A DNA stretch of 64,000 nt from Euglena gracilis (GCA_039621445.1 CP154954.1:46231847-46295846), one strand, 5' to 3'; shown: positions 13,701-57,200, numbered from the stretch's first letter. Made by a program: numbers and translations. Notes: generated by a model from the sequence alone, not told the origin.

Positions 13701-16700
13701 GCCATCAACAGGGTCAGAGGGGGCTGAATGCCGCCCCGGGAGGTGGGCGGGGAGGGGAGGGTGGGGCGGGGCGCCAAACCCTGTGCCATCCAGGGGGGGG
13801 AGGTTCACACCCAACTGATGTGAGTCACGGGAGGGGTGGTCACGGGAGCTGCTGGTTGGACCGCGGCCGGCCGCGGCCCAACCACTACCGATTCTGAAAC
13901 CCTGAAATTTGGTTTGGTTGGGCCACAGCCACTCAACCACAACAGATCCAGCGACCCAAACCAGAACCGCATCGCACAATGCCGTGATAAATTGGCCCCA
14001 TGCGGGGTGCCAGTTATCCCAGGGCGACCCTCCCCCATATTTTTAGTTGAGCGGCACGCTTTGGGTTCGCTGAGTAGTTCTGGAAACAATTATAACGACG
14101 TTGAGCAGGAAAGGGTCAACTGTTTGCAACAATCCTCACCAAACCGTTCTTCTTCACATAACCTCACAAATTATTTTTTATGATCGCCCTTTGCAGTTTG
14201 GTTGGGGCCGCGGCTGGCTGCGGCCCCAACCAAAAAAACTTTTTGGTTGGGCTGCGGCCGGCTGTAGCCAAACCGCTTCCGATTTTCAAACCCTCAAATT
14301 TGGTTCGGTGGGCCGCGGCCGCACCTACCTCTGTGAACCCACCTCTCATGACCTCCTACCTCCACAACTTGGAGCATTTTTAAAAGCAAGGCACTTTTAC
14401 AAACATCTCCAAGGGTTAATCCACGGAGAATTCACAACTCGCAAACACACCAAAAATCCACTCTGGTTTTGGCATTCTGCTCCTCGTCAGTTGAATAGTA
14501 AAAAATGGAGAGGATGTCCGGGATGGGGGATGGGGGTGCCTTCCCCTGCGCCTGCCTTCGGCATTCTCCCCAAATTCACGGCGTTCTCACACTCTTTCCT
14601 CCCCTTTCCTGATTGGCCCGTCTTCCACGCTTGGGGCACGGCTGCCGGCCCTGCCCTCGCCGTTGCCAACGGCTGCCAACCGGGCCACCGCCGGCTGCCC
14701 CCTCTCAGGCCCTGGACAAGCCCGGCAGCGGCGGCAGGGGCGGCATGCGGAAGTTCTGCCACTTGGGGGGGAGGGCGCTGGGGATGATGTTCCCCTCGTC
14801 CACCAGGTCCTGGAACTCGACCTCCTCCGGGGCCTCCTCGTCCACCAGGCCGGGCAGCGGCTCCCAGCCCTTCTCCACGTGACAGTGGCCCCTCATCCGG
14901 TCCACACGCACGCAGAGCTCCCCCGCAAAAAGCGCCACTGCACAATTTTCTTGAGCTGGCAGTGAAATGACACAAATGCAACGGATTTGTGTGTGAGTGC
15001 ATTTGGACCATCATGTGTTTTATGTTGAACCATCTGTGCTTTGACTGCGGGCCTGCCTGTGTCTGCCCACCAGTACACGCATGTGCGTGCGTTTGACACC
15101 TTTGGAGGCAGTGCGAACACAGCTGAGGCAGCGGAAGCATCAGGTGCTGCGATGAAAGCAGCGTCCGGAGGGGCGCGACGGAGGAGAAGCCAGCCTCAGT
15201 TCCGCCCGGAGCAAGTCCCGCCGCGCCCGCCTCTCCTCCGGCGCCTTCATCATGGCCTCCGCTCGGTACAGTTCCGCCTCCGTCATCAGCCCGATGTCGT
15301 GAGTTTCAAGCGTCCAGCGCGGCTGGCGGCCATCCCCCCCCCGGGCGGATGAACACCTGGAAGTCCAGCTGCGGGGTGTGGAGTGGAAAGCACAGTGAAA
15401 GGGGAGCAGTGTTGACCCGTCCACCCAAGAGCCGTCCAGCAGCACCCGTGACCCACCCGCGCCGGCCCGGGAAACTGTCCTCTGGGCCTGTCTGTGGTGG
15501 AATTCCCTGAAAAGCGGTCATTTTCAGGCGTTGGGGTCAGAGAAACAAAAGGTTGGGCCGCCGCCCGGCCAGCTGGAGGCCGTCCGCCCCCTCCTCGACC
15601 TCCTCGTCCAGCCCGTCCTGCCCGGACACACTGAAGGGCGGGGGCGGGGGCGCCGTCGGCAACTCCACCGGCGGGGTCGGGACGGCGCGGACCGATGGGA
15701 CACCGGCCCCCAGTGTGGAGGCCCCCCCCCTGGCGTGCCCAGGGTATGAAATGAGCGGGGAGAGAGGGGGCGACCCTCCCTCCCCCCAGAAGGGGGGGGG
15801 TCGGACCACCCCCCACTCTCCCTGTGCAAAAAAATTCTGGCACAAAGCGACGGAAAATTTTGTGGACCTTGAACAAGGCCCAAGAATTGTGGTTTCGCAC
15901 GCTTTCCCCCCAAAAAATCGGTCACAACGTACACCAAATTTTCATCTTTGCCGGCGCAAAGCGCCGGAAAATGTTCTTAAGGGGTTCCCGGGGGTCCCAG
16001 AAGCGGAATGCAGCGCCAGGCTTTAAACCAGACAGAAGCCAAAGTGCAGCTAAGGGGGGTCCAGACCCCCCCCCCGGTCCGAAGGAGGAGGGGGGGGAGA
16101 GGGGTGGTTTGACCCCCTCCGCAAAACCACCGCCCACTTAATACCCTGGGTGTGCCAGTGGGACGGTTCCACTCCGAACCCTCCCGCGGGGCCACCCCGT
16201 GGTGGTGACATGGTGTCACACGGTGTCCGGATGAATGCCCCCAAACCTGACACTCGACATCTCTGCTGCTCGCCATATTTGTTAAGTTAGACCATCGATG
16301 GATGTGCACATTGCAACAGCTTTTTCACAACTGCATTGTAGATAAAGAAGCTGTGGATATTCTTATGAAGCACAAAAGACAAGCGCTGACACAGAGACAT
16401 GATTTTGCTCTTTATTTCTATTGGTCTTTTTTTTGCTTCATGGGTGATTAGTGAGGATGCAAAATTAAGCTGATGGAATATGATATTTATCTGCCTGTTC
16501 TCAGATCGAATAATTCATATGAATATTATGTTCCAATTTGCCGCCAGCTGTGCCAGTCGGTGTTGTTGTTCAATCACACTCAAGACTGCGAGCCGAGACT
16601 GGATGCAAGACATGACGGTCCCCACAAACCCGTCAAGCCCAGAGAGAAACAAACAACCACATCCTGGACCCAGCTCCCTCCTCCCGACCTTCGCGCCGGC

Positions 16701-19700
16701 CTGGGTGGCCGCTGCAATAGTTCCCGGCGCAGCAGCCGGGAGGGGTAGATTACGGCCACCTTCTTGCTGCGCCCCCTCACCACGGCGAGGTCCGGCATGC
16801 CGAGCAGGACGTCCCACCAGCTGGTGCCCAGGTAGGTCTTCAGCAGCTTGACACCCCGCCTGCGGGCACCCCCCGGCTGACCTCCGGGCCCCCGCCCGGT
16901 CGCTGTCCCCCGGGGGTGGGTCACCGCGGGAAGTGGCAAACGCGGGAGGGGCGCCTGTACACAGCCGAAGGTGCGCTGATAGATCCCCCAAGTATGCCCT
17001 CTGCCTGCAAGTGATCGACCAGGACTCACACGGCGGGACCTGGGTCTCGAACCCACGACCTCCCGCCCAGACATTCATTTAGTGTGGTTCACAAAAGACG
17101 TGTGAACCACAAATTTTTTTCTGGTGTCCACAGGTGAACCACAAATTTTTTTTGGTGTCCACAGGTGAACCACAAAAAAATTTTTGGTGTCCACAGGTGA
17201 ACCACAAAAATTTTTGTGGTGTCAGCAAAAAAATTTGTGGTCCACAAAAATTGATTGAGGATCGAAAAAAAAATTTACACCTAAAAGCGGATTGATCTTT
17301 AGACACCTCGACCACATTCTGAGCCTTGGCCCCGGCTCAATCCACGAAGCGTGGCAGTTGGAATTGGACAGATTGCTATCGAGAGTTCTCAAGCAGACAT
17401 GCTCTGTAGACAACTTACCCAACAAGGATACCATCAAAAAGTTAAGTACTGGCGTCGATGAAGCGGAATTCCGCTTCATGGAAGCAGAAACACGCGACAT
17501 TATCGTGGGGCTTTGGCATGGCTGCGGACATTGGGAACGTTCTAGGGCATTGTGGGATGTCAGTTGAGTGCCTCAGTGCCTGAAAAAGTGCCTGAAAAAT
17601 CGGCAATGCCATGTGCTTTGTTTTGAGGTAGGAGCCGGAAAGCCACTTCATTGATGTGGTGTCAGATCTTCAACTTGACCATTCAATGAAAGACCACATT
17701 CAGTATAGTTTTTCATTCAGAAGGGTAAGTGTCAGCCTCATTCTGGTTTTTGCAGTTTGGCAATATGAGATAATTAAAAAGGTATTATGTCAGCCTGAGG
17801 AAGCGGATAACCGCTTCATATTTGCTCTGTTTTTTTTGCAGGTTTTACGCCAATGTCATGTCGAAATGGCCTTCCAAGTGAAGCACGGGGAAGTGAACAG
17901 AAGGTCTGTATCGTTTCGCCTGTTCTACCTTTCGTAACTCGTGCAATTGTCTCCACGTGGTTTGACGTATTTGCATTATGCACTTTGGATAATGACATTC
18001 AATTTCTGTTCAGTTTGTCCAGTTTCTGTTATCTTCATAAATTTCATAAATGTTAACGTTCTTCGTTGTTATTGGGATTGGAATATCGTTTGGTGATCAT
18101 TGTTGATCATTTCAATTCATACCATTTTTTTACGGATTCTTTCAAAGCGGTTTTACGCTTCCTTTTTGGTGTGCAAACATTATGCATATTTTTTTTACAT
18201 TACATTCTGTATAATTCATTGCGTTGCACATCTCCTGCTTTTGAAGCGGAATGCAATATTTACCGCTTCCATTTTTTATTTTTTCTGTTTCGTTCCTTCG
18301 GGGCCTACGGCAGCAGAAACAACGCTTGTTTTTGTCGGTTCCTCCTGTTCATGTATTTCTTGATTGGTTTTGTTGATTTTACCAGAATTCGAAAGTAAGT
18401 TGGCCTTCTTAGGTCTGCTTTCAACTGTATAGGTCTCCTTTACTGTGAGCCAAACGTCCACCGGAATTGGCCAAAATCAGAACCTCTTCAAAAAAAATCG
18501 AAAAATATGACCCTTTTTTGGAAGTGGTTTTCCGCTTCCTCTTCTGTTTTTAGAGCACCAGAATTGTAGGCCAACTTACGCCGCCTGAGTCAAACATGTT
18601 CACAGAAGATTGCTTCCTTGCTGTTGATGAGAAAGAAAATGATGCAAATGTCAGCAGGCGGTGGGAATTTTTTGGTGTCCACATGTGAACCACAAATATT
18701 ACTTTGGTGTCCACAGGTGAACCACAAAAAAATTTTTGGTGTCCACAAGTGAACCACAAAAATTTTTTTGGTGTCCACAGGTGAACCACAAAAATTTTTG
18801 TGGTGTCCACAGTGAACCACAAAATGACAACCTTGGTGTACCACACTAAATGAATGTCTGCTCCCGCCTGTGAGGCCAACACCTTAGCCGAATAAGCTAT
18901 CCGGGCGATACTCGCTTTGGTGTTATGCACCTACCACTGTAGTGCGTTGTAGGCTCTCCCGTCTGCCGCACACGGCGCCGCAGTCCACTGTGACTGGCTG
19001 CAGTGCCACCGCCCATGATCCCACCTCCCGCAACAACCTCAGCCCGGTCCTCCGCACACACACGGGTGCCCTGCTCTTCCTTGGGCTGAGGCAATTTTCT
19101 TCCGACCAAATTTGCTTGCATGACGGGAGACCAGCCATAGCCATTTTTTTTTGTGCCGGTGGATTGTCGAGCCATAGGCGGTGGTGCGCCGGAAGCTGGC
19201 CAACATGGGTGGACAGAGCCTGCTTTCGAACATTGTCACATTACCACATACTCACATACCAGCCCCCCCCCCCACACCTTTTCCATGTTGAGAATTGAGG
19301 AAGGCAAAGACCAAAACCTGCATCAATGTAAAGAACATCACCCTGGAGGCAGGTCAGCGCCATAAACTTGGTGACCCTGGGGGAGAGGTTTGGGTACTTT
19401 TCCCCTAGGCCAAAACCCACCCAGGGGGGCTCGTGGGCTTGTGGGTGGGTTACCAATCCCCTCGGCCAGCCCAAAACCACTGGGAATCCACCAAAAATCC
19501 TTAAACTCTTTCTGCCCAACCCGGCTCTGGCCAGGTTGGGCACACCTGGCCAACGCCGGGGATGAAAGAACTTAAGGTTTTTTGGCTGATTTCTGGGCAT
19601 CCCGGGGGGTGGTGGGCTCCACTGGTCCCAAGCCACCCACCAACCAACCAACCCTTGTCATTGACACGCCAATGTTCCAGGAAAGTTGACACAGGGGGGG

Positions 19701-22700
19701 GGGTGTCAAAGACATGCTGTGTCAAAGACAGGGGGGCACGTACTCTCTAAACCCCCTCAGCACCTTCAAGAGTAACCCCCCAAAATAGACTCGGGGGGGG
19801 GGGCTATTTTTCTGGTCTGTTGGTGGAAACCTTAAGGGTCTTTTTTGACCTTTTTCTGGGAAACCGTCGATTCTTGGGGTCCCAAAAACATGGAAAATCC
19901 TTTATTTTGCATGATTTTTGGGTCTCAAAAAAACCCGTCAAATATCAGCAATTGTTGTGCCTTAAATTGGGGTTTTCAATAATTTTAAGAGAAGTGTTTT
20001 ATGGAGCTTTGTGTGGTCTGGGGGGCCTTAACCCAATTTTTGGATTTTTTCTCATTCAGCCCGGGGGTGTCTTGTTTGGGGGGGGGAACTCTGGTTGCGC
20101 TCCAGTTGTTCGTGGTATGCGGGGGGGGGGGATGCGGGGTGGGTAAATCCTGGGGCCTCCAGCCCGGGGGTGGACGGTGTACAGCCCGGACATGAGGCCG
20201 AACCGGATCAGCCGGATGCCGTCCGGGTTCGCCACGATGCAGTCCCGCACGATCTGGCGCAGCTCCAGGAACCGCGGCTGCAGGCGGGGCCGCTGGCCGG
20301 GCTTGAGGGTGCTGCGGCCCGGCCGCCTCAGGAGCTCCTTCCGGAACACCGCCCAGTGGGGCACCGGAGGGATGGGCCAGCATCTGGCAGTCTGGGGGCC
20401 GAGAAATGAAACAGGCAGGTGGAGAGAGGGGCTGGCCACAATGAAGCAGCATCTCAATGTCATGATGTATCAATACCTAAAATACACACACATGTCATGA
20501 TATTGCATTGATGTACCTGTGTCTAAATCGTACACACACACACACACACATATACATACATATATATGTATGTGTGTATATACATATATTATATATATAC
20601 CACCCCCCAAATAACCTTGGACCTCCCAGGGGCCGCCTCTGGCCCTCGGGGGATGCTGCGGCATCGGCAGGATGGAGCTGCCTTGCAGCTTTTCGAAGAG
20701 GTGGGCCGGGAAGAAGGTTGGCCCCCGGCGAGGCGCTTCCTGAATTTGTCAGCCCCGCAGTTCACCCCCGCTGTGGAAAAGCTCAACCCGCATCTTGTGC
20801 AAGGCACACTGCAGTGCACAAAAGCTAACCTCAAAATAACACCATCCCAGCACGGCACACATTTTGTTAGGTCTTCAGAGTGGAAATGTCCCCTCCCCAA
20901 CTGGTGGTAGGAAAAATTGGATGCTGCCTGCATGCGGACTACAGGTCCACATGTGGACTACAGGTGCACTGGAAATCGCCAAATCCCCCCCCCCTATTTA
21001 ACAGGTCACTTCGCTAGTTTTGTCCCCTAGAGAACTAGAGTCAATATAATTGCAGTCCTAGGTCAACCGTAGCAGTTCCTTGGTTTCTTTTTATTGCTTA
21101 TTTAATGAGTTTTTCATTCAAAAAATAAAAATCTGGACTGCCACTTTCACACTATGCTAAGCTCCAAACATTGTAAGACGTTAAAAAAATGACAATGCAA
21201 AAAAAATGGTGCACTCCTTCACACAGAACAAGATGGCATGCGACCAATGAGCGCAAAATCCCACACCCTCCATTCCAGGAGTTCTGAGTTGCGAGAGACA
21301 GCGGCCGGTGGAAAGAAAACCAATGGCTGGCTGCCCCCACCCCTCCGTGCTCGACCGCCTTCCCCTTGAGAACCGCCTCGGCCCCCTGAACAGCCCCACG
21401 TCCGACAGCTCGAAGTCCCGCAATACCTCGTCCGGGATGCGGAGCCGCCCCCTCGGGACGAACTCCAGCGGGAACGCCGCCGCCGGGCCGGCCTCCAGGG
21501 GTCAGGGGCCGGGCGCCGAGTCAAACCATTGCACGCCGGGCTGCTTTGTAAAACCCTCTCGCAGGGGGGAAAGAAACGGACTCCCCCAGTTCGCAACCCT
21601 GCAAAGAAAAAACACGGGGTCACATCAGTGAAATGCACCATCCATTTCCAATGCCAGTGCAACGTCAAATGTCAAATGCCAAATGTCAATGCTAAATTAA
21701 ATAATTCAATTCAATCAATTCAATTTCATTAATTCAACTATGGTGTGGCAGGGTCAAATATTAATGGTGTGTGTGTATGTGCGTGTGTGCGCGCGCATGT
21801 CCCTGTGTGTGGGGGGGGGGAGGGTATGCACAGAGGGGGGTTTGCGCAGGGGTGGATGGTGGTCGATCAGCTGGGCCCCTTGCCACCTCACCTGTGTGTC
21901 AATCTCTTGGTAGGAGGAGATCCTGACTTAGTTTTGTGTTGGGGGTGCAAAAAAAAAAAGTTCTGCACCGCCAAAAAAAAAATGCTTCAGGCAAGCCAAG
22001 TTACGGCAGAGAGGACAGCCGCAACGCCTCCTTCGCAAAGGCAAAATGCAACGCATTGCCGGCAACAGCGGCTCGCGGCGACCCACCGCCGGCCCCGACC
22101 CTGGTGGGGGGGGGGGGAGGCTGGCCCGGGCGGGGCGAACACCCAGTTGGAGGGCAGCAGCGACTTCCGCTTGTCCTTGATGACGATGAGGTCCGGCATC
22201 GAGAAGAGCAGCGCCCAGACCGACTGCCCGCTGAGGCGCCCAGTCGCCCAGGGCCGCTTTGGCGGCTTGCATGGCCACCGGAGAAGTGTTGAAAGCGTTG
22301 GGGGGCCGATGTCCGGAAACTGGGGGAACAACAACATCGAAACCGCCTTTCCATCCCTGGAACCCACCAACCAGGACCTAAAACCCCCTTGCTGTTGGAA
22401 TGTGCATGAACTTATGGGGATGCCCACCCCGCAGTGCCGGCACTGCGTGGCACTGCGTGGCACCGCGTGGCACTGCGGGCCGTTTAACCCGTATGCAAGC
22501 ACCTTCAATGATGTGGCGCTATGTAGGCATTTTTATGGTCATTGTTCGACATTTCTAGCCAGATGTGGTCAAATTGGCCCAAAAAGGCACAAAACAACCA
22601 GAATTGCCCTTGATGGCCCGAAAATTCCAATGATGCAAAAATTGGGTTTAACGGCCCGCAGTGCCACGCAGTGCCACGCAGTGCCACACGCAGTGCCGCA

Positions 22701-25700
22701 CGCAGTGCCACGCAGTGCCGGCACTGCGGGGTGGGCATCCCCTATGAGTGAGAGGAAACCCCCTGCAGAGGGATACCCAATCCCACCCCCAATGTCAATG
22801 TTTAACTTATTGGGTGACATTAAAACTGTGCTGTGCCAATGTTTGTCTCTTCTTTCTTTACCCCCCCCCTTCCACGACCACTGATTTTTGCCTCCGATTG
22901 GGGGGGTCATTTTCAGGCAAAGGATGTGGGGGTGCATGGCCATTTTTGGCCGTTTTTTTTGGCCATTTTTGGGGCAACTTTTAGCCGTTTGCTGTAGCCT
23001 TACACACACTTTCATAAACTTTAATCCCTTGGGATAATTTGTAATCATTTTGGGGACTATTGGCCTTATTTGCGACTTTTTTTTGCAACCATTTTCTGGA
23101 GTTAATCCCAACGAATTACAAAACTTTTCAGCAACGTGCAAATAATGCAAAAAAGGCGAAATTAACCATCGTATACAAAAAATTCATGACTGGGGGTCGT
23201 TGGACAAGGGGGGAAAAACACAAGAAAAATTGCCAAATCCTCGCTGAACATTTTTGTGAATTGTGAATTGTGAACAGACTTCTCCTTGAAGAGATTCGCA
23301 AAAAGAAAAAACACTGGTATTTCAGCTGGCAAATTCCTTTTTTCTGTCACATGATCCAAAGCATGCAGAAGCATGCTTTCGGCACATGATCAACAAAAAC
23401 ACAATGAAAAATACACACCGGCACTGTGACGGTGGCAGGTGTGCAAATCCACAGAAAAAGCATAAACACCCCCATGTCCAACTCCATCCATGTCCCAGGA
23501 TATCACCACTGTCCAAAGGGGCCATTTCCATCTCTGGGGCAAAATACTCAAAAAAAAATGGGGAGCAGAAGCAGACAGGAGAAAAATGAGAAAATGGAGG
23601 AACAGGAATGTTGCAACAGGAAGCACATGCCAAAAACCTATGGGCATAAACCCTTGTTTTTCCATTCTTCTGAAAATCAGAAAAAAGGGGGGAAATGGAC
23701 ATTTTGGGGACCACGCAAAACATTCATTGGATGCAAAATCACGTGAGAACATTGAAAATCAGCTCAGGTGAAAAGGCTGTTGAGGGGAAGCAACCAAAAG
23801 CGTTCAGGTTCCTTTCCCTGCCAACAGGTTGACCGCCTCAGGCTGGAACCCCAGGCGCTGCATCCGGTTCCGCTGCACGCCTCCTCCAAACCTTCGAACG
23901 GCCGTAAGGGACCGGCCGGGGATGAGGCCTGCCCTGGGCACCCGCTGATGCCCCTGGTGGACAGCCAGGAACACACACATTATGCACGAGCAGGGTGGAG
24001 GGCGCACAGAGAGGCCGCAATGGGGAAGAGCCACGTGCAAGCCCCAGCAGGGGTTTTTTTTTTAAGACGGCCCCCCGGGGGGTCGGGGGACCCACTTTGG
24101 GGGGATTTTCGACACCGCGAAATGTGAACGCGGCAAAGCAAACGCGCCAATCAAAAAACTCATCGAAAATTGCTAACCCCCCCTCCTAATAGAAGCATGG
24201 GTGCGCTTATAGGGGACCGCCGCCTCCGGTGGCGGGGGGTGCGCTTCTATTCTCTACTTGCGCGGTTTTTGTTGATTTCCTTTAGAAATCCCATCAAAAT
24301 GGGGGTGCACTTGTAGCGGACCGCCGCCTTCGGCGGTGGGGGGGTGCGCTTTTATTTGGACCCTGCGCTTGTAGCGGCCCCATGATTCTATAAGGGGGGG
24401 GGGTTACAGCAATTGTCTGTTCAATGCAAACTGAGGGGTATACAATGGTCAATCAGACTCCGCCCACTTGGACATTGTGGCTGTGACAAGAGGCGCGACA
24501 AAGAAATTGCAAAAATTTCGGCGCTTTCGGCGTCGGTCAAAAAAAAAAAATCCGACGCCTTCGGCGCCGGGCACCTACCAGCCAAAAAAGGTACCCCCCC
24601 GGGGGGGGGGGGGGGACGGCCAGACCCGCCCATCCTACCTGCCCCCGGGGTCCAAAGCTAAAAAAAAGAACCCCTGGCCCCCAAGCCAAGGATGACGCGC
24701 ACGGGGGCAAAACACCACTTGGCCCCAATCTTGGCTTTCCTGCTTCAATTTCATGTCGTCTGGGCGTCCGGCTGATTCCTTGTTCTACCCCACGAATGGT
24801 CTCTGCCCCTTTCCGGGCCATGACCCTGACTTGAGCACCGGCATGTGAAATGCCACTATTACCCTTCAGTGATGTCCACCTTTTTCGGCGCCAGGTGTTA
24901 AGGTTTGAATTATTTTCGAGGTGCTTCTCAATGCAACCATGGGCTGGAAATACAGGGGGAAAATAACGGGAAACAAAAAATACAACAAACCATCCCAATT
25001 TTCCCACACACCCCCTGTAATTTGTCCACTGAACCTTTCCTGGCCCTTTGGGAGAGCCAATCTTACCGGCAGGAGTAGCCAAAACTCACAGACAAAAAGA
25101 CAGTTGTGAAATATTTTTGGCGTTTATTTTGTAATGAAAAATCACAAAAAAGCCCAAGAGAAGACCATTTCGACCATTCTTTGGAATTTCAGGCTGCCTT
25201 TTTACAAAAAAAATGCATTACAAATGAGAAAAAATTATACATTCCTTCCCCTGAAATAAAAACGACCATTCCTCTGAAACGTCGAAATTCCCTCCGGACT
25301 TTCCCAACCTGTAATTTTCATCTCTCGAATTTGGAACACAGTGCATCAATTTTCTGCAAATTTTTCAGGTGGTCAACATAGGGGGGAGGGGGTTTATTGG
25401 GGGGGGGTTGACTCCGCAATGTTCTTCAGCCAATTGTGAGGGGGAAGAATAGGGCACATGTTAATTGCTTTGATCTGTTCCTGAACCTGGGGTTTTCCCC
25501 TTGCGCCGTGCAAGGCAGGAAACTCGCATGTTAGGAACGATCAACAAAGCCCTCTGTGACCTCCCCGCTGTTTAATAAGGAATTTTTCAATGTGCCAAGA
25601 CAATAATTTCTGACACAAAAAAGTAGCTTCTGGAAAACAGGGACTGGGGGATCTCCCAGCCAAGATAGGGTGACCCCTTGACAGCGTGCGATTCCAGCCA

Positions 25701-27415: not shown

Positions 27416-27470
<55 letters not shown>

Positions 27471-37269: not shown

Positions 37270-37314
37270 TAAGCGGTTGCCGTCCCAGCACACAGGAAAG
37301 CCGGCCCCCTGGGC

Positions 37315-41529: not shown

Positions 41530-41556
41530 GCACACACACACACACACGCACGCACG

Positions 41557-41622
<66 letters not shown>
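41530..41622. repeat. (CA)n microsatellite
   Basis: Direct reading. Confidence 0.97.
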
Positions 41623-41624
<2 letters not shown>

Positions 41625-41689
41625 GCAACATGAGACAGAAGGGCAGGCACCGTGTATCCAAAAATGGCCCAGGCCGTTCTGCAGCAGAT

Positions 41690-41925
41690 GGCACTTTGCT
41701 CGAAACCCCGTTGCTGCTCCGGCTCCTGCGCCTTCCGCTGCCACGGGTCCTCCGCTGTCGCCTCCGCCCGCGCCGCCGTCGGCGGCCCCACCTCCTCCTC
41801 CTCCTCCGCCTCCTCCGCCTCCTCCTCCTCCCCGGCGTCCCGCCGGCCCAGCTGCTGGAGCTCCCGGAACTGCGCCTCCGCCTTCTCCAGCAGCCGGCGC
41901 CGGCGCACCTTGCCCCCGGGAGGGC
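41690..41925 (-). CDS. Unit A exon: [36 protein letters not shown]... (3' edge approx)
   Basis: Paralog at 1791-1950 (GKTRQRRLRKRAEKWYIDLRRRGRWD). Confidence 0.85.
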
Positions 41926-44900: not shown

Positions 44901-45244
44901 CACCCACTAGATCGGAGGCATATATATATATATATACATGCATATATATATATATATATATATATACTATATATATAGACATATATATATATATATATAT
45001 TATATATACTTACATATATATCCATATACCATACATATATATACATACATCCTATATACATACATATATATAGCATCCTACATAGACATACATACATACA
45101 TACATACCTACATACATACATACATACATACATACATACATACATACATACATACATACATACATACATACATACATACATACATACATACATACATACA
45201 TACATACATACATACATACATACATACATACATACATACATACA

Positions 45245-45275
<31 letters not shown>

Positions 45276-48200: not shown

Positions 48201-51200
48201 TGCGAGAGGATTCATAATTCTCAAAAATTTGGCAAATATTAGAATTTGGTAATATCTCGCCAGGGATGTACGCAGGGAAAAATTCTTTTGGTTTCCCTGG
48301 ACTACATTTTAGGTTTTGACCCTGTTCGAGCTGTGGAACGACCATTTGGTCAAGAAACATGGACCACCCTGGCCATCCGGGGCTATGGCCCAAATCAGCT
48401 CGAATGAAATTATTATTTTCCGGAAGGCCACATTGAAACGTCTGCGTCCAGGAGTCAACCCAACAAGCACCCCAGGCTGGGTCGGGGAGCAGCCGGAGGC
48501 AGCCCGGCAAGCTCTTCGACTTCCCCTTCCTCTTCTCCTTCCACTCCGTCCTGCGATGAATTGGAGGGCGTTGGAGAGTCGATGGCCAGCGACCACTCCA
48601 GGGGCAGGCGTGGTGCAAAGTCCCACAATTGCCGAGATAGGACACACACAGGCTGCACAAGCGGAGCCTCAGCATTGCATTGAAAGAAAGAAGACAACAA
48701 AAAAAAAGAATGAAAAAAAATGAAAATGGCTGTGCAGATGAAAAGAACAGGGCCAGCAGGTACATCAAAACCACCCAACCTGCCCACCGAACCAGAATGC
48801 CACCGCGGGCCAGCATGCCCCAAGCACACAACGGTTGCCCACGAGCTCCACAACCCCATCACGCCTGGTCCGGGGGGCCGGCGCCGCCTCGCTCACCTCC
48901 TCCCCCTCGCCGCCCACCCCCTCCCCCTCCTCCGTTTCCTCCGCCGCCGATGGCTGGGCCGCCGCCTCTGCGGGCAGCGGCAGGGATGGCACCGCCCCCG
49001 GCAGGGCAGCCCTCCTGCCCCCCCCCCCCGTTCCTGTGGCAATGGGAGGGGACATGGTGGGGCGTCGCAAGAACGGGGCCAGAGCGGACCGTGTTTTTTT
49101 TTGGCGTATTTTACCCACTTTTGCCACGTTACCTTTTTTGGACACTATGTTGGCGCATTTTGCTTCACTTCTTTAAATTTTTTGGCCGCTTTTAACAGCT
49201 TTCTTTGGCCTTCTTTGACAACTTTTGCCTGCTTTTGGATTTTTGGTCACTTTTTGGCCACTTTTGATTGCCTGTGGCCATTTCTGGCCAATTTTGGTCA
49301 CTTTTGGCCACTTTTGGCCAGTTTTGGTCCACCACAGGCGACCCGTTTTTTGGCCACTTTTGCACTTTAAGGCCAGGCCACTTTGGTCCACTTGGGACAT
49401 AATCGGTTGAAAAGAGGCATAATCGGCCCTGGTCCCTGATTGGAACCCCACCTAGGTCCTGAAAATCATGGTCGGCCCTGGTTGGGGGGGGGGGGGGGGC
49501 TCAATCCATCCAGTCACCCCTGAGGGGTATCCAGATCAAAAAGAAGCCAGCCAGGAGCACCGTTCAGGTCCCATCAAGCCCATCAACAGCTCAGCCCACC
49601 CCCACTGACACGGTTGCCTGGCAGCCGCCCAGCAGGAGCGCTGGCCTGACCGCCGGCCGCAGGCGCCCCGCCGCCGCCGGATGGACCTCCCGAAGCAGGC
49701 GGAGGGACGGCAGGATGGTGCACGACGACCGGCGGGACCCCTTGAGGCGGGCGAGGTCCGGCATGCCGAGCAGCACGTCCCGCCACCCGTACCCGCGCTT
49801 CGTCCCCATGAAGAACTTCAGCAGCTTGACCCCGCGCCTGCCAGCGCCTCTGGCCCGGACGGCTAAAATCATTGAATATTCCAACAATTATATTTTTAAT
49901 GTCAGAAACACTGATGCATCGGGAACATTTTTTTTGAGATTTTGAGATTGTGGGGAAAATGCTGGAAGAAGGAATACAAAAAAAACATCTCCTCCTCCTC
50001 TTTCTCCTCCTCCTCCTCCTCCTCCTCCTCCTCCTCCTCCTCCCTCTTCTTCCTTTTCGATCTTCTTCCATTCCCAGTTGGAGTGATTGGGTCAATTGAC
50101 GGACAACTCTTGCAAACAGAGCAGTGATTGAGCTCTCGCCACTCTGCAACAGCATCAAGCGTGGCACCATTTCTTCCAATTCAGCGCTCCACGCTGCAAC
50201 ACTAGTTGTCAGTCCGGAGGCGGCCGATGTACAGCCCGGCGTAGACGTCGAACTGCGAGAGAGGGACCCCCTCCGGGTAGTGCATGACGCAGTCCCGCAC
50301 GATGTCGCGCAGCTCAAGGAAGCCGACCTTGATACCCGCCTTACGGAAGGTCTGTTGGGCGCGGTGGCCGACCCGGATGACAACCTCCTTCCGGTTCACC
50401 GCCCAGTCCGGCACTGGGGGGATGCCGCACCGCAGCAGGAGAGGGCAGCCGTGAGCGCTTGCCGTGGCACAAAGAAATAAAAATAAAGCACAATGTGTGT
50501 GAGGGTTACAAACTTTGTTCACCTGCGGCAAATCTTGAAACTTCTTTGTTGTGTACCCTTCATCCTTCGTCTGAGGGAGTAGACTGGGAATCTTCGGGGA
50601 GGGGGGAGTGATTGCACAAGGAGAAATAACTGGCAGACTCATTTAATTTGGCAAGGAATCGTTTATTCTTCGTCTGGAAGGTCATTGCAGTGGGTGCAGT
50701 GGAGAAAATGGAAAATTTGAAGGAAAAATGAAAACACAGAAGCACCCAAGGATTGAACAATAAACCCCCCTCGGGGTCTAACTTCGCCAACCGAGTTAAT
50801 ACCCCCCCCCAATTTTCGGGCCAACGACAAGAAAATATGATATTTACCTACATTTTCCGGGCGAAATCCAGGTCGGAAAATGTAGGTAAATATCATAATT
50901 TCTGATGTCAAATTACGGGGGGGGAATCAATTTTTCTGGATCATCTGGCCTCCAAAAAGGCCTTATTTCACGAGAAAATACAATAAAAGACCCAAAGGGG
51001 GGCCTTGGGGTGCCATTCCATGAGACTTTGAAGATTTTCGAAATTTTGGGGAGCTGTCACCCTCGGGACGGGTCTTGAGGTCAAAAAATAATACCCTGGG
51101 GGCAGGGTTCGATATAAGGACAGGGGGGGGGGGGGGTGGTCCGGACCCCCCCTGCGGGCCAGGAGGGGGGGGGGGGGGGCGGGGACACCCCCCCCCACCT

Positions 51201-54200
51201 AAACAGGTGCGCGGTCAGGGTGGCCGAATTTTCGGCCCGGCGCGAAGCGCCGGGCCGAAAATTTTTGACCCCCCAAAACGACCAAAAGTGCCATTTTGGG
51301 CACTTTTTGGGCAAAAATGTGCCAAAAATGCAAAAAATTTTCGGCGCAAAGCGCCGGAGGAAAAAATTGACCCTTTTGGGGGGGGGTTAATTTTTGCCCC
51401 CGAGGGTCGGTCCGGACCCCCCTTGCAGGTGGGGGGGGGGGGGGGGGCCCGGACCCCCCCCTGCGGGCCAGGAGGGGAGGGGGGGTGGGGGGGGGACACC
51501 CCCCCCCACCTAAACCATGTACGCCCTCCTTATATCGAACCCTGCCTGGGGGGTATTATTTAGGAGGGGGGTTGCTCTTATTTGGCAAATTCGACCCAAA
51601 AATGGGTTGAACCTATGTGAACAACATCAAAATACATGGCAGGCGCAATTCTTTAGAAACAGGCAATTTGATATTCCCTTCCATTTCATTTGGAACGTGG
51701 CCATGTAAAATTTGCGCAAAAAATAGGTCCAACTCTCAAGAAACACATTTTTCCCATCACGGCGGTCAGTGAGGAAATCGGGGGGTGGGGGATATTATAT
51801 AGGCGGCTGAAGTCGGATCCAAGAGGGAAAATTATTTGGGATTGTTGGGGGAGGAGGAAAATAAACTGGAAGGGGTTTTATTTTTGGGGGGGTTAAATAG
51901 CAGCCCATTCGAGGGTCCCAGGAGGATCTGAAATGGGAGTCCCACTTGTGCAGACCCTTCGTGCGGGTGTATGGATTCGTCGCGTTTCACCACAAACATA
52001 GCACCACAATGGCGAAGGGGTGCCCCCTACTGTCCCTTCAACTGTTTCGAATTGCAAAGTCCCTTGTCTTCTGGATGATGGGCTGATCTTCTTCATCAAT
52101 TTTTTTCAGAAGGCCAGTAGGATTACGGTTGGGATTCACATTCTGGTTTTGGACATTTGAAGGCTAAATTTAGGCCCTTTCTACCCCAATTATTTTTCTA
52201 ATATTAAGCCTAATTTTGGTACAAAACACCAAACACTTCCTCCTTTAACCGTAAACCTGGTCAGAAACCAAAATGAATTCCAGCTGAAGCTCGAACAACA
52301 TCAAACACACTCAGCACACACTGCATGCCCGAGAAATCCTGGGAAGGGGGGTCCACCCCCCCCCGGCCATCCACCGGGGCACGGGGCGGCACCGCCGGGA
52401 TGTCCATGCCCTCCAGCCTCTCGAAGATGTCCGCGTTGAAGAAGCTCGGCCCCTCGAACAGCTCCGTGTCCGACAGCTCGAAGTCCCGCAGCAGCTCCGC
52501 CGGGATGGGCAGCCGGGGCGGCGGCAGGTGCTCCGGGGCGACCGGCGAGGGCGGCGCGGCATCTCAAAAAGGCTGCGGTGGGCAGCGTTTGGGGTCCCGG
52601 GGGATGGGGCGGCGGGGGGGGGGGGGGGCAGGGAGTGGGGCATACTGGAGAGGCAGGAACGCCTGCAGGTGACAGGGGGATGGGAACGGGAACTGCAAGG
52701 AAGAATGGGGGTCGGGAGGAGATGGGTGCTACATCCCCCCCTTTGTCCTTGAAAAGCCAAAATACGGGGAAAGTGCGGTTGACACGGGGGTTGATGGACC
52801 GGGGGGGGGGGGGGGGGGCCCTCGCAGACGTTTTACTGATTTATTGACCCAAATGGGCGGGGAGCGGTTGTGTTTCTTTTGGTCATGGCGTTTGGACGTT
52901 CTGCACAATTTTGGGAACGTCTGCTTTTCCAAATGTCACCATAAAAGTTTTGTTCCACAGCTTTCGACGCCTGGCATCTTCCTGCTCTTTCCTTGTGTGG
53001 GCAAAGATTTGGGTGCCCGCGCATTCGGGGGGACGATGCCACTCCGATGGGGACAAAAACCCAGTTGAGCGGCAGCAGCGATGACTGCTTGTCCTTGATG
53101 ATGATCAGGTCGGGCATGGAGAAGAGCAGGCCCCAGAAGGACTACTCCCTGAGGTGGGTCCTCTGACCCCGGTGTCGGGTGGCCTTTGCACTGCAAAATT
53201 GGGGTTAGATGCCCCCACAGCTTCAATGTCTGCCTCCCTCTGCTAAGCCCCTTTCGTGGACTAAAAAAGGATGAAACTCGTGCCATGAGAACGCTCCTCT
53301 TTCTTCTTGGGTGTCCAAACTCGCATTTAAGCTTTTTTCCTTTGTCGGTGTGCACAAATGCACACATCGACAATTTTTACGAAAGTGACAACAGCTGGCT
53401 CTCGAAACCCAAACTATGTGATCATGATGTGCTGTAGTGCCCCAGGACGCAGAGATGGAAACAGGGACTTTGACAGTTGGGGCCCACCGTTGGGGCCTAA
53501 GAGCAGGTGTCACCACAGCATACGGGGTACATAACACACAGGACGTCAGTCTGGAACCTTCGAACACAACTGCCTCATCAAAGTGGGATGTTAATACCCC
53601 CTCCCTAATAGAAGCGCGGGCGCGCTTCTATTTGGACCCTGCCTGTGCGATTTTTTTGCTGATCTCCTTTAATGCTGATCTCCATCAAAATGGGGGTGCG
53701 CTTGTAGTGGACCGCCGCCTTCAACAGCAGAGGGTGCGCTGTTATTTAGACCCTGCGCTTGCAGCGGCCCCACGCTTCTATTCGGGGGGGGGGGGCGGAT
53801 TTAGTGGAACGATTTAGGACAGATGAGATTAAGTCTGAAACGATGCTCTGAACTTTCAACTTTGCAAAAATTTGGTTTGAAAAACCTCAAGTTCGAGATA
53901 TTTTTGTAGAATTTAATGACAGCTAAAAGATCAGCCTTCTAGGGCCTGAAACTGGGCATTGGCAGTTGGGTTGGTGCGCGCAATTGTGCAAATGAACCAT
54001 TCTAATGGCTGATGTGCGCATTGACACCCACCCACCGAAACTTTGTTTCATTATTCTGAAGCCTCAATAACGGGGGATTCTGAGACAAGAGAAGGGTGGA
54101 AACAGGAGGAGAGCAACATATGGAGCGTTGTGTTCAAATTGGAGGTGTTGTGAGGAGTGTTTGAGAGGGTCAAATGAAGTGTGTCAGGGAACGACATTAT

Positions 54201-57200
54201 ATGGCCCCCCTAAACACCAAGGTTTTGATCGCGCCTCATTTTTTGGACAAAAATACTGGGGGTGGACCTTTAAACTAAATTTTAATGAAAAAACCTGGAA
54301 AGCCCTTTTGATGTTTCAAAAGCTAAAAATGATTTTTCAAACCACAGCACCACAGGAATGCAAGGGAGGACACCATAATTTCATTGCATTCATTTTCCAG
54401 CATCAAGCACGGTGAAATGGGTGGCTCTTGGTTGACTTTGAAATGGTAGGTGTGCGCAAATGCGCACATCGACCATCAGCGCATTTGTGCACACTGATAT
54501 CATCCTTGTTGTTGTATGGGTGCCACAGGTATTAAACACCAGTGGGGTAGAATGGAGACTCAACTGGTTCCGTGTGGTTATCCTCCTGTGTTCTGTGTCC
54601 CCCTCATCAACCACCACTGACAGAGTTCTCTCACAGCCCATTTCCACCCGTTTTCTTTTTTGCATGAGAAATTCCATTCCTTTTGTAGCCAACTTCAAAA
54701 ACCTCCACAACGTGCGGCAGGGCTTCAGAAAGCAAGCAAAGGGTGGACCTGTCACCCCACCTCCAGAACACCACTGGGAGCGCTGTCAGTTGTCACGCAG
54801 GAAATGCAAATACCAGGTTTTTCGTGTATTTTTGGTCAATTTCTGACTTCGGGAAAGTCAGTCCCAGGATTTCACAGTTGGGCAACGTGCTTACGCTTTT
54901 TGTTGTCGGTGTGTGTATGTTTGCACACGATACATTTTTTTAAAAAAAAATTGGAAGGTTGGGGTTCAGGTTTGTGAACTGTTTGTGTCCCCCCCCTTCC
55001 CCGTGCCCCTTCCCCCCCCCGGACCCTCCCTCCCCCCACTCCCTTCCCCTGTGCCCCCTCCCCCAATAACTTTGGTGTGGACAAAGTTGGCGGACATGGC
55101 ATAAATTGCAAACGGGTAAACGGTGTTGGCAAAATCAGGAGGGCATGGTGTTTTTGTGGTTAGCGTGGGGTGTGGGGGGGAGTGGAGGTTTCGCAGCCCG
55201 GCGAATCAAAATTTGTTTCGGCGGTGGCGAAATAAGGGTTTCCACACGCACCCCCCCTTCCCACCACCCCAGATTCCCGCCCCACATTCCACCCCACCGC
55301 ACGGAAAAATCAAACCGGCATGGATCTACAAAAAGGGTGTACCCCCCATCGTACCACCACCCGCACCACTGACAGGCCGCCAAAAACTAGCAAAAGATTC
55401 CTAATCAGATGACCCAATCGCGAGCACAACCACATGCCAGGAATTTCACATGGGCAGTCTCTTCACAAACCCGGTGTGGTCAATTGCACACCGTTTCACA
55501 TGAAAAGAAATTGTTGGGTTCAATGTATGAACCTGTTTGTGTCCCCCACCACCCTTCTACCCACACCCTCCCCCACCCACCCCTAAGGCACCCGCCCCCC
55601 CCACACTCCCACACGCAAACCCCACCCCCCAAACCTACCACTACCCCGCCAATTCCACCCCGTCCCAAAAACCGTCAACGTCCATCTTAGTTTTGTGTTG
55701 ATTTCGAGTGGAAGTTTTTGTTGGAATCATTTCTGTTTTCCGCCCACCTAGTTTTTTATTTCCTTTATTCTCTTTTTTTTCTCTGTTTTTTTTGTACCCA
55801 ATATTAACCCCCCCCCCCCGGGCTTTATATTCTTCGGATAACCCAAACTACTTTGTCCCAATTAGGAGCTTGGATTTTTCGTACAATGCATTTTTGATAC
55901 ATACGTTAACCAAATTTCATCAATTCTTGTGCTTTTTCTTGTAGTATGTCTGGTGATTTTTACACCTGGTGTCAATTGGATTCATGGGTGCGGGCGTGGT
56001 GGGGGGCTTATGATTTATGCAGCCGATTGGGGGGAGGTATTATCACTACCCCCTTGTCTAAGCACCACCCCCCGGTCCATTCCCGTCTTTTTAAACAGTC
56101 ATCTTCTCGGGAGGCTTATTTGTGTGAGCTTCTAAGAGAAGTTTATCGAAAATTTGGACATTCTGGGGCCTGGTTTTGTTGGTTTTTTCTGATATTGTTG
56201 ATTTTTTCATCCAAGTGCCTGAAAGTTCAACAGTGGAACCCCAAAATAAGTGAATGTGGGTGGACACATTCCAAGCCTGAATCACCTCAGCGCAGAATAG
56301 GAAATTCCCCTAATGTTGGGGGTCCGCTGTATTTCCTTGCAGGCATTGCGATGATGAAATCAGCAATGTATCACACAATCCTGAAAAGTGTGAGGAATGT
56401 CGAAATTTTCGAGAAACATTTCATGTTTCTACAAAAAAAAGGCTCCCGAGAAGGCGACCTTTGAAAAGATGGTGCTCTTGAACAAGGGTTGAAGGGAACA
56501 AGGTTCTCTTGAACAAGACTTAGACAACGGAGGGAGGATGTATGAGACCATGTTGTTCACACCGGTCAGCATGGGATCCCCTCAGGTTGGAATCCCAGCC
56601 GCTCCACCCGGTTCTTCTGCTTGCCGCCGCTGAAGCCCTGGAGGCCCTTCAGCGTGCCCCCCAGCACCCCCTCGGGCCGCGCCTTCATCTGCTCCCGGGT
56701 GTACTGCCGGGCTCAGGGCAGAGACCAGCCTGTGGCTGAGGCGATGAGTTACCCCGGACTTGGCAACACACCAGCCTTCTCCTGCCACATGGGGATCCTC
56801 ACCCCCCCCCCCGATGTGGTCCGAGACCCTGGGCGGAAGTCGTTGTAGTCCTTCCACATGAGGGCGTCCCAGCGGCTGCGGTCCACGTCCGGCGAGTAGA
56901 ACGACTTGCGGTAGTGTAGCTCCGCCAGCTTCGGGGAGGTGCTCTCGGGGCAAGTGGGGCCGTCGCTGTTACACATGGACAAGCACGACAGCCCGTGCTG
57001 ACGCACGGGCGGTATTTCACCGACACAGGGGGGATGCACGGGACCGAGCCCGATCCAACGGACCCGGTGCGAGGGCGCCACTCTCACACGTCCGCGTCAA
57101 ATCCCGGCCTACGGTGCGAATCGCGGTCGCATTCGCCCAGAACGCGGATGCGTAGGCCGTTACATCGCTTCGGTTAGTAGGTGGGTAGATAGATGACAAC

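What the first reader, a model, noticed from the sequence alone, without database searches (positions are those of the whole stretch)
13704..56588. Paralogous introns co-vary: only the C+4:G-6/-7 pair looks invariant
Seen at homologous positions: PGL|A uses CCG/CGG in unit A (46837-47672) and CAG/CTG in unit B (13704-14717). GLY(I/T)|RRG uses CGC/GCG in A (49840-50225) and CAC/GTG in B (16862-20175). GFQ uses inverted CTG/CAG in both, keeping the CTGAGG/CCTCAG core. NWVFxP uses CGG/CCG in both, and intron 20724-21383 uses CGA/TCG. Intron interiors are unrelated and differ up to ~20-fold in length (126 vs 2466 nt). Inference: the code is structural and broader than the usual CAG/CTG consensus, and the duplication acts as a natural covariation experiment.
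Basis: partly seen in the sequence, partly recalled or inferred. Interest (0 to 1): 0.82.

Follow-up and report, generated by a model that had tools for sequence, protein, structure and literature searches.

The report
Nonconventional introns in duplicated euglenid gene
Two neighbouring copies of a euglenid gene carry the already described "nonconventional" introns whose two ends base-pair; RNA data confirm the junctions in one copy, and the pairing-not-sequence rule they illustrate is already in print.

Summary
The window holds two tandem paralogues on the minus strand: unit A about 43159-60050 and unit B about 6983-27342. None of the 12 can be slid to GT/GC-AG. Ten of the 12 pair +4..+6 with -8..-6 (3-nt 5' spacer, 5-nt 3' spacer; one through a G:U). 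They match their own partner far better than other introns' partners (0 of 20000 permutations).

The title claim fails. Two RNA-confirmed introns start the helix with A:T (AAG/CTT) or G:C (GGT/ATC), and their unit B counterparts are predicted to do the same.

The principle is published. Milanowski 2016 reports complementarity rather than sequence, with compensatory changes between homologous introns. Nomura 2025 gives the code N3-CDG/CH'G-N5-6|R.

The residual interest is that 6 of 12 confirmed introns fall outside that code. One is a non-slidable CCG/CGG intron.

The parts
43159..60050 (-). Unit A: paralogue with RNA-supported exon chain. Exons in + coordinates: 59892-60050, 58776-58847, 57586-57630, 56834-56946, 56588-56707, 53050-53142, 52397-52546, 50226-50415, 49650-49839, 48870-48994, 48499-48598, 47673-47823, 46772-46836, then 44063 downwards. 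The 3' exons around 43159-44063 are known by paralogue similarity only.
   Evidence: Joints and contig pieces. One open frame across the joined exons. tblastx exon pairs.
6983..27342 (-). Unit B: paralogue, exon chain predicted. Predicted exons: 27266-27342, 26918-26963, 26422-26533, 23845-23955, 22132-22225, 21384-21478, 20669-20723, 20176-20365, 16718-16861 and onwards, 14718 to about 14890, 13641-13703, 12827 downwards.
   Evidence: tblastn of the A product against 1-40000. One open frame across the nine predicted exons. No RNA laid.
58848..59891 (-). A i0, nonconventional intron. CAG/GTG: +4 and +5 pair, +6 is a G-G mismatch.
   Evidence: Joint 58847>59892 (9 X21 reads, 1 contig each in X1 and X2). 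Ends.
57632..58776 (-). A i1, nonconventional intron. Helix CAGGC:GCCTG with a 7-nt 3' spacer.
   Evidence: Joint 57630>58776 (slide 2) (13 X21 reads, 5 X24 reads, contigs). Ends.
56947..57585 (-). A i2, nonconventional intron. AAG/CTT (A+4:T-6).
   Evidence: Joint 56946>57586 (10 X21 reads, 6 X24 reads, contigs)..
56709..56834 (-). A i3, 126-nt nonconventional intron. CAG/CTG.
   Evidence: Joint 56707>56834 (slide 3) (10 X21 reads, 2 X24 reads, contigs)..
53144..56588 (-). CTG/CAG, helix CTGAGG:CCTCAG.
   Evidence: Joint 53142>56588 (slide 1) (13 X21 reads, 5 X24 reads, contigs)..
52547..53049 (-). CGG/CCG.
   Evidence: Joint 52546>53050 (20 X21 reads, 4 X24 reads, contigs)..
50416..52396 (-). 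A i6, nonconventional intron. GGT/ATC (G+4:C-6, G:U at +5), 8-pair helix.
   Evidence: Joint 50415>52397 (slide 3) (16 X21 reads, contigs)..
49840..50225 (-). CGC/GCG, helix CGCCTC:GAGGCG.
   Evidence: Joint 49839>50226 (7 X21 reads, 1 X24 read, contigs)..
48997..49651 (-). A i8, nonconventional intron. CAG/CTG.
   Evidence: Joint 48994>49650 (slide 2) (3 X21 reads, 1 X24 read, contigs)..
48600..48870 (-). A i9, nonconventional intron. CAG/CTG.
   Evidence: Joint 48598>48870 (slide 1) (5 X21 reads, contigs)..
47824..48498 (-). A i10, nonconventional intron. CGG/CCG.
   Evidence: Joint 47823>48499 (13 X21 reads, contigs)..
46837..47672 (-). CCG/CGG, not slidable.
   Evidence: Joint 46836>47673 with both=0 (11 X21 reads, 1 X24 read, contigs)..
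44066..46773 (-). A i12, conventional GT-AG intron with a C-rich tract. It holds an (ATAC)n array at 44922-45274.
   Evidence: Loose end at 46772 in one X1 contig and one X2 contig. Its 30-letter consensus lies at 44034-44063. Array.
26964..27265 (-). B i1, predicted. Helix CAGGC:GCCTG with a 7-nt 3' spacer, as in A.
   Evidence: Homology and frame. Helix cells. No RNA.
26534..26917 (-). B i2, predicted. AAG/CTT, 9-pair helix.
   Evidence: No RNA.
23956..26421 (-). B i3, predicted, 2466 nt. CAG/CTG with a 6-nt 3' spacer.
   Evidence: No RNA.
22226..23844 (-). B i4 ('GFQ'), predicted. CTG/CAG, helix CTGAGGCG:CGCCTCAG.
   Evidence: No RNA.
21479..22131 (-). B i5 ('NWVFxP'), predicted. CGG/CCG.
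   Evidence: No RNA.
20724..21383 (-). B-only intron, predicted. CGA/TCG, helix CGAGGCG:CGCCTCG. A 7-nt direct repeat at the junctions gives slides -4..+3.
   Evidence: The homologous A exon 52397-52546 is uninterrupted in RNA.
20366..20668 (-). B i6, predicted. GAT/ATC (G+4:C-6).
   Evidence: No RNA.
16862..20175 (-). B i7 ('GLYT|RRG'), predicted. CAC/GTG, helix CACCCCC:GGGGGTG.
   Evidence: No RNA.
13704..14717 (-). B i11 ('PGL|A'), predicted. CAG/CTG.
   Evidence: No RNA.
12828..13640 (-). B i12, predicted conventional GT-AG intron at the same position as A i12.
   Evidence: No RNA.

Best explanation
These are ordinary euglenid nonconventional (NC) introns in two old tandem paralogues of a protein-coding gene on the minus strand.

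Each NC intron folds so that nucleotides from +4 onward pair with nucleotides from -6 backward. The splice sites then lie 3 nt upstream of the helix on the 5' side and 5 nt downstream on the 3' side (6 nt in one predicted B intron, 7 nt in one pair). The downstream exon starts with a purine.

The helix and its geometry are conserved, not the letters. After the duplication, spacers and interiors diverged completely. The terminal helices stayed the same or changed by compensatory substitutions.

SHOWN: the junctions of 12 NC introns in unit A, and partner-specific complementarity.
TAKEN FROM PUBLISHED WORK ON OTHER INTRONS: that the pairing is needed for splicing.
INFERRED: that unit B is spliced at the predicted sites, and that the helices form in vivo.
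For: JUNCTIONS. One search shows 12 joints in unit A. Each is in one contig of X1 and one of X2, and in 3-20 raw reads of X21. One search shows that the joined exons give one open frame.

INTRON TYPE. In one search, 0 of 12 can be slid to GT/GC-AG. The 13th intron, i12, can, and is conventional.

PAIRING. In one search, under N3/N5 geometry, 9 of 12 have 3 of 3 Watson-Crick pairs at +4..+6/-8..-6. One more (i6) has G:U in the middle. i0 has 2 of 3. i1 pairs only with a 7-nt spacer. In one search, own-partner 3/3 is 9 of 12 against 17% of 132 cross combinations, and 0 of 20000 permutations reach either statistic. In one search, the mean duplex energy of the 25-nt ends is -22.6 (own) against -16.7 kcal/mol (cross) in A, and -24.3 against -16.6 in predicted B, each with 0 of 20000 permutations.

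SITE CONTEXT. In one search, at the chosen slide the downstream exon starts with a purine in 12 of 12. The upstream exon ends in a pyrimidine in 11 of 12. The intron starts with a purine in 10 of 12 and ends in a pyrimidine in 11 of 12. This is the published NC pattern (PMC3935182 section 8).

PARALOGUES. One search gives, of 48 helix cells, 31 same, 3 one-sided, 7 double, 5 lost in one copy and 2 unpaired in both. In one search the interiors are unrelated.

LITERATURE. PMC12501133 Results and PMC4770533 passages.
Against: Unit B junctions have no RNA support here.

Where a junction is slidable (11 of 12 in A), I chose the slide that fits the N3/N5 geometry. That is partly circular. The purine rule and the cross-partner control, which was given more slide freedom than the real pairs, mitigate this but do not remove it.

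The sample is 12 introns of one gene. One search shows only 15 joint rows and 182 are not shown, so alternative joints may exist.

X1 and X2 are only guessed to be RNA. X21 and X24 are RNA on record.

Nothing here shows the helices form in vivo or that the spliceosome is not involved.

The organism is coded in the run list. I did not show its identity. 'Euglenid' rests on the intron type.
Confidence: 0.85

Rival explanations
1. A single C+4:G-6(-7) closing pair is the only sequence-specific determinant, and every other position merely has to pair.
For: Ten of 12 RNA-confirmed A introns and 7 of 9 predicted B NC introns have C at +4 paired with G. In A i1 and B i1 the G lies behind a 7-nt spacer, and in B i3 behind a 6-nt spacer. 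In Nomura 2025, single substitutions of these two positions abolished splicing of one test intron.
Against: A i2 (AAG/CTT) and A i6 (GGT/ATC) are RNA-confirmed with 10 and 16 X21 reads. That is within the 3-20 range of the other joints. Only the slide that gives A:T or G:C at +4/-6 puts a purine at the downstream exon start. The predicted B homologues keep the same non-C:G closing pairs.
Confidence: 0.08
2. The apparent introns are reverse-transcription or assembly artefacts. The polymerase skips a hairpin between short direct repeats, so the 'code' would be a by-product of template switching.
For: Eleven of 12 joints are flanked by 1-3-nt direct repeats, and every skipped segment has a terminal hairpin.
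Against: The same 12 joints appear in four runs of four studies, both as raw reads and as contigs. Removing them, and only them, gives one long open frame that is conserved in the paralogue. One joint has no repeat at all (46836>47673, both=0). The skipped segments are up to 3445 nt. Bins that lie wholly inside intron i4 are nearly empty (0.15/0.07 for 55285-55908), against 24.5/30 for 52789-53412, a bin that holds an exon but also a stretch with poly-G read artefacts (table 2).
Confidence: 0.02
3. The shared odd triplets of A and B are identity by descent without constraint. Equally, the introns could have been inserted independently at the same sites, so nothing about a code would follow.
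For: In the core triplet, 21 of 24 cells are simply unchanged between the paralogues. Nonconventional introns are described as frequently gained at new positions (PMC6221363 abstract passage; PMC3935182 abstract in the listing), and one intron here is B-only.
Against: The 5' spacers next to the helices differ in all 8 pairs listed, and the interiors are unrelated. Yet the helix positions are kept, or changed on both sides in 7 cells against 5 lost. Eight NC introns and one conventional intron sit at the same codon phase in both copies. That argues against independent insertion.
Confidence: 0.05

Closest known systems
Euglenid nonconventional introns, structural model of Milanowski et al. 2014 and 2016 (PMC3935182, PMC4770533)
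   Same: No GT/C-AG borders. A terminal helix brings the junctions together. Pairing is at +4,+5,+6 with -8,-7,-6. The context is Y|R...Y|R. Complementarity, not sequence, is kept. Homologous introns show compensatory changes. Lengths and interiors are highly variable. NC introns are gained at new positions.
   Different: Nothing of kind. The homologous introns here are paralogues within one genome rather than strains or species. One confirmed intron (A i0) has a mismatch at +6/-8, positions that paper found always paired in its 55 introns.
Noncanonical splicing code 5'-N3CDG-/-CH'GN5-6|R of Nomura et al. 2025 (PMC12501133)
   Same: 3-nt 5' spacer, 5-6-nt 3' spacer, purine at the downstream exon start. 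CAG/CTG, CGG/CCG and CTG/CAG are all present. Six of 12 confirmed A introns fit the code, against 61.2% reported for E. agilis.
   Different: Six of 12 confirmed introns lie outside it: CCG/CGG (C at +5, excluded by 'D'), CGC/GCG, AAG/CTT, GGT/ATC, CAG/GTG, and CAG/CTG with a 7-nt spacer. That paper tested compensatory swaps only at the second position, and only CTG-CAG spliced. I could not see its supplements (Fig. S11, Datasets S7 and S8). They may already list these classes.
Terminal base-pairing survey of E. gracilis nonconventional introns, Gao et al. 2024 (PMC11170887)
   Same: Consensus CCAGG at +3..+7 and CCTG at -9..-6. Terminal 10-nt pairing occurs in about 96-97% of nonconventional introns, against about 65% of GT-AG introns.
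   Different: That survey reports energies and logos. In the section I read (section 10) it gives no partner-specific covariation.
Structure-defined cleavage of tRNA/archaeal bulge-helix-bulge introns (recalled, not from a call)
   Same: The cut sites are set by distance from a helix rather than by sequence.
   Different: [quoted passage not shown] No enzyme is known, and the 3/5-nt geometry is asymmetric.

Membership tests
Euglenid nonconventional introns | Borders not GT/GC-AG at any position compatible with the mRNA | tested here: met
   0 of 12 RNA-confirmed A introns and 0 of 9 predicted B NC introns reach GT/GC-AG at any allowed slide. The separate i12 pair does, and is conventional.
Euglenid nonconventional introns | Base pairing of +4,+5,+6 with -8,-7,-6 that brings the junctions together | tested here: met
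   Nine of 12 have 3/3 Watson-Crick pairs. i6 has 3/3 with one G:U. i0 has 2/3. i1 pairs only with a 7-nt spacer. Own against permuted partners: 0 of 20000.
Euglenid nonconventional introns | Y at upstream exon end, R at intron start, Y at intron end, R at downstream exon start | tested here: met
   11/12, 10/12, 11/12 and 12/12 in unit A at the chosen slides.
Euglenid nonconventional introns | Removed from mature mRNA | tested here: met
   Unit A: 12 joints in raw RNA reads and contigs. Unit B was not tested.
Euglenid nonconventional introns | Spliceosome-independent removal and excision as a circle | not testable with these tools
   Taken only from the literature (Discussion of PMC12501133).
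Nomura 2025 code N3CDG-/-CH'GN5-6|R | C at +4, non-C at +5, G at +6; C, the complement of +5, and G, followed by 5-6 nt; then a purine | tested here: inconclusive
   Met by 6 of 12 confirmed A introns (i3, i4, i5, i8, i9, i10) and 4 of 9 predicted B introns. Not met by the rest at any slide. The paper itself finds the pattern in only 61.2% of NC introns.
Conventional spliceosomal introns of Euglena | GT/GC-AG borders, C-rich polypyrimidine tract, no terminal helix | tested here: met
   Met only by A i12 44066-46773 and predicted B i12 12828-13640. The C-rich tract is per PMC11170887.

The most novel reading that the evidence does not exclude
The splicing machinery for nonconventional introns reads helix geometry (3 nt / 5-7 nt from a terminal helix, purine at the acceptor exon) and tolerates any Watson-Crick triplet.

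The tolerated cases seen here include C at +5 (CCG/CGG), non-G at +6 (CGC/GCG), and non-C:G closing pairs (A:T, G:C). The closing-pair exceptions are kept in both paralogues since the duplication.

The published CDG/CH'G code would then describe the commonest ancestry, or the needs of short weak helices, rather than a requirement. Longer flanking helices would rescue 'forbidden' triplets.
Probability: 0.45. Interest if true: 0.4.

Novelty: already known. Interest (0 to 1): 0.22.

Why it matters
It matters little as a discovery. Passages of Milanowski 2016 already state that complementarity rather than sequence is conserved at +4..+6/-8..-6, and that homologous introns show compensatory changes.

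What is useful is a small, RNA-verified set of natural introns outside the published CDG/CH'G signature. It holds a non-slidable CCG/CGG intron, CGC/GCG, AAG/CTT, GGT/ATC, and a 7-nt spacer predicted in the paralogue too. These are ready test cases for the existing knock-in assay. They would show whether the code is a true sequence requirement or a helix-geometry rule whose strictness depends on context.

Tried and rejected
1. Protein search for spliced products. The search with the translation of exon 50229-50423 ('longer' lengths) found 6 word-sharing candidates and none scored. So no transcript-derived protein was available to check unit B.

2. Pfam on eight exon translations. Nothing passed a curated cut-off. 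OST-HTH/LOTUS had E 0.025 (14.9 bits against a cut-off of 23.8) on one exon. ScsC_N had E 0.24 and is likely chance. 'LOTUS-like' is only a hint.

3. Earlier notes of this scan: none.

4. Whole genome: none held. A third paralogue or a genome-wide mutual-information count was therefore not possible.

5. Sequencing runs: no RNA holder is listed on record among the contig runs. X1-X19 are only guessed to be RNA.

6. First lay on 43001-63000. The tool turned it away because of a long simple repeat, so I laid the part beside it, 45301-64000. The three 3' exons of unit A below 44063 were therefore not covered.

7. An idea of my own. I considered that i7 might really use an in-frame internal CGG...CCG pair, which would add 21 nt in A and 12 nt in B and would fit the published code. 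I rejected it for A. The joint is 49839>50226 in two contigs and 8 raw reads, and no alternative appears among the 15 rows shown (182 rows are not shown).

8. First prediction for B i1 (26967-27265, 4-nt spacer, one residue longer than A). I dropped it for 26964-27265, which matches A in length and in the 7-nt spacer. Both are unverified.

9. I did not work out the B introns homologous to A i8-i10 (B 14774-16717, a poorly conserved acidic region).

Full report
WHAT IS IN THE WINDOW

A self-comparison of the window gives a collinear series of short matches, all on the minus strand, between about 43159-58858 and about 6983-27347 (blastn, filtered tblastx). Exon products are roughly 45-80% identical.

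Pfam gives no match above a curated cut-off for eight exon translations. One exon has a sub-threshold OST-HTH/LOTUS hit (E 0.025). I therefore leave the product unnamed.

RNA EVIDENCE FOR UNIT A

One run search listed contig runs sharing 7-11% of the sampled words of 46601-56600. That share is about what the exons alone would give. It also listed raw RNA-seq runs of the same coded organism.

This is the (ATAC)n array at 44922-45274. I then laid X1, X2, X21 and X24 on 45301-64000.

Twelve joints form one chain. In + coordinates the introns are:
- 46837-47672
- 47824-48498
- 48599-48869
- 48995-49649
- 49840-50225
- 50416-52396
- 52547-53049
- 53143-56587
- 56708-56833
- 56947-57585
- 57631-58775
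- 58848-59891

The tool reports slide ambiguities of 0-3 nt, and my own repeat check reproduces them. Each joint is present in one contig of X1 and one of X2, and in 3-20 raw reads of X21. Eight of the 12 are also in X24.

Joining the exons gives a single open frame. A contig loose end at 46772 continues at 44034-44063. It is a conventional intron.

CHECKING THE OBSERVATION

Read on the minus strand they are GGC-CCG...CGG-CACGC|A (not slidable) and GGC-CGC...GCG-CTGGC|A. The 'GFQ' intron (53144-56588, CTG/CAG, core CTGAGG:CCTCAG), the 'NWVFxP' intron (52547-53049, CGG/CCG) and the 126-nt intron are confirmed too.

For unit B I had no read-laying run left. I projected the A product on B and placed junctions at the homologous codon phase. 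The nine predicted exons give one open frame. The 2466-nt homologue of the 126-nt intron is 23956-26421, with a 6-nt 3' spacer.

Homologous intron interiors share nothing by blastn in 6 of 8 pairs, and only 19-24-nt hits in 2.

IS THE PAIRING MORE THAN CHANCE?

I used the geometry of a 3-nt 5' spacer and a 5-nt 3' spacer.
- Nine of 12 confirmed introns have three Watson-Crick pairs at +4..+6/-8..-6.
- i6 has three pairs with one G:U.
- i0 has two.
- i1 pairs (CAGGC:GCCTG) only with a 7-nt spacer.

As a control I paired each 5' end with the 3' ends of the other introns and gave those combinations more slide freedom than the real pairs. This gives 3/3 in 17% of 132 combinations. 0 of 20000 permutations reach the observed 9, or the observed summed helix length.

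Duplex energies of the 25-nt ends are -22.6 kcal/mol (own) against -16.7 (cross) in A, and -24.3 against -16.6 in predicted B. In both cases 0 of 20000 permutations reach the observed value.

No intron can be slid to GT/GC-AG. At the chosen slide the downstream exon begins with a purine in 12 of 12. For i2 and i6 that is true of only one slide. This is a semi-independent check on the slide choice.

The triplets in the 12 confirmed introns are:
- CAG/CTG x4 (one with a 7-nt spacer)
- CGG/CCG x2
- CTG/CAG
- CCG/CGG
- CGC/GCG
- CAG/GTG
- AAG/CTT
- GGT/ATC

The last two have A:T and G:C, not C:G, as the closing +4/-6 pair. Their joint read counts (10 and 16 in X21) are within the range of the others. 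The predicted B homologues keep AAG/CTT (a 9-pair helix) and GAT/ATC. So the C+4:G-6 pair is common (10 of 12) but not invariant.

Between the paralogues, 8 pairs x 6 helix positions give 48 cells:
- 31 unchanged
- 3 changed on one side
- 7 changed on both sides
- 5 lost in one copy
- 2 unpaired in both

Within the core triplet only +5/-7 varies. There are two double changes (i7 G:C to A:T, i11 C:G to A:T) and one G:U to A:U. The +4/-6 and +6/-8 pairs are identical in 8 of 8 pairs. The 5' spacers differ in all 8 pairs.

The helices are therefore under constraint. But the duplication says little about the first and third core positions.

COMPARISON WITH WHAT IS KNOWN

Milanowski 2014 (PMC3935182, section 8) gives the model: pairing of +4,+5 with -7,-6, mostly CA/TG, with Y|R...Y|R context.

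Milanowski 2016 (PMC4770533, passages) compared homologous introns of E. agilis strains. [quoted passage not shown] Gao 2024 (PMC11170887, abstract and section 10) shows terminal pairing genome-wide in E. gracilis.

Nomura 2025 (PMC12501133; abstract, all Results, Discussion) reports the following:
- It catalogued 649,158 junctions and stressed slidable introns.
- It showed in vivo that every single substitution in CAG or CTG abolishes splicing.
- The 5' spacer must be 3 nt and the 3' spacer 5-6 nt. Splicing was weaker with two extra nucleotides in the 3' spacer (7 nt) and almost undetectable with three (8 nt).
- The acceptor exon prefers a purine.
- Natural CGG-CCG and CGG-CTG introns splice.
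- Of the compensatory second-position swaps only CTG-CAG works.
- This gives the code N3-CDG-/-CH'G-N5-6|R, found in 61.2% of NC introns.

A search for 'nonconventional intron' + 'compensatory' + 'euglenid' returns only the two Milanowski papers.

WHAT REMAINS

Six of 12 confirmed introns fit the Nomura code. Six do not. Among these, CCG/CGG has the C at +5 that the code excludes. It is non-slidable and well supported, and a second 7-pair helix (CTGAATG:CATTCAG) follows an internal loop.

Compensation at the first and third positions (AAG/CTT, GGT/ATC, CGC/GCG) was not among the swaps described in the main text I read.

The boldest reading I cannot exclude is that the rule is helix geometry plus an acceptor purine, and that triplet identity matters only for weak helices.

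MECHANISM AND CONFIDENCE

Shown here: the junctions in A, and partner-specific complementarity. Taken from the literature: pairing is required, and NC introns can be excised through a circular RNA (reported for tubA, cited). Inferred: unit B is spliced as predicted, the helices form in vivo, and the organism is a euglenid, which was not shown by a call.

I put 0.85 on 'ordinary nonconventional introns under helix constraint in two paralogues', and 0.08 on the strict 'only C+4:G-6 matters' version. Novelty: already known. Interest: 0.22.

Noticed in passing
window 20724-21383 (B) against 52397-52546 (A): Unit B has an extra predicted nonconventional intron that splits an exon which is uninterrupted in unit A RNA. 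Its junctions carry a 7-nt direct repeat (slides -4..+3) next to a terminal inverted repeat (CGAGGCG...CGCCTCG). The uninterrupted A exon resembles the repeat copy. This looks like an intron gained by insertion with a target-site duplication after the gene duplication. Precise loss in A is not excluded. There is no other copy of its interior in the window.
   Followed up: partly
window 44066-46773 and 12828-13640: The one conventional GT-AG intron of the gene sits at the same codon position in both paralogues. The A copy holds an (ATAC)n array of about 89 units at 44922-45274.
   Followed up: partly
window 57586-57631 (A) and 26918-26963 (B, predicted): A micro-exon of about 46 nt lies between two nonconventional introns. 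The upstream one has an unusual 7-nt 3' spacer, confirmed in A and predicted in B.
   Followed up: partly
window 51102-51545, 60765-61097, 25818-26228: A dispersed repeat of about 330-450 nt (78-85% identity between copies) lies in non-homologous introns. Contig word depth over it is very high (bin 50917-51540: 1005.8 in X1 and 5164.7 in X2), so it is a high-copy and probably transcribed element.
   Followed up: no
window 51165-51184 and 52800-52819: Hundreds of X21 and X24 reads stop here with long poly-G loose ends, and show 'goes back 18-19' joints at 52818>52800. This is probably a sequencing artefact at a G-rich site. It is unexplained.
   Followed up: no
window 47761, 47813-47814, 48509, 48572, 50268, 52465, 56917 and others: Exonic single-letter differences between the window and all or most laid reads and contigs. 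These are likely strain or allele differences. Nothing here points to editing.
   Followed up: no
window 27343-27352 (B) against 58848-58856 (A): [quoted passage not shown] In A it reads GTG-N5|A, so the +6/-8 mismatch of A i0 looks like a change in A. The 5' end of the B intron was not located.
   Followed up: no
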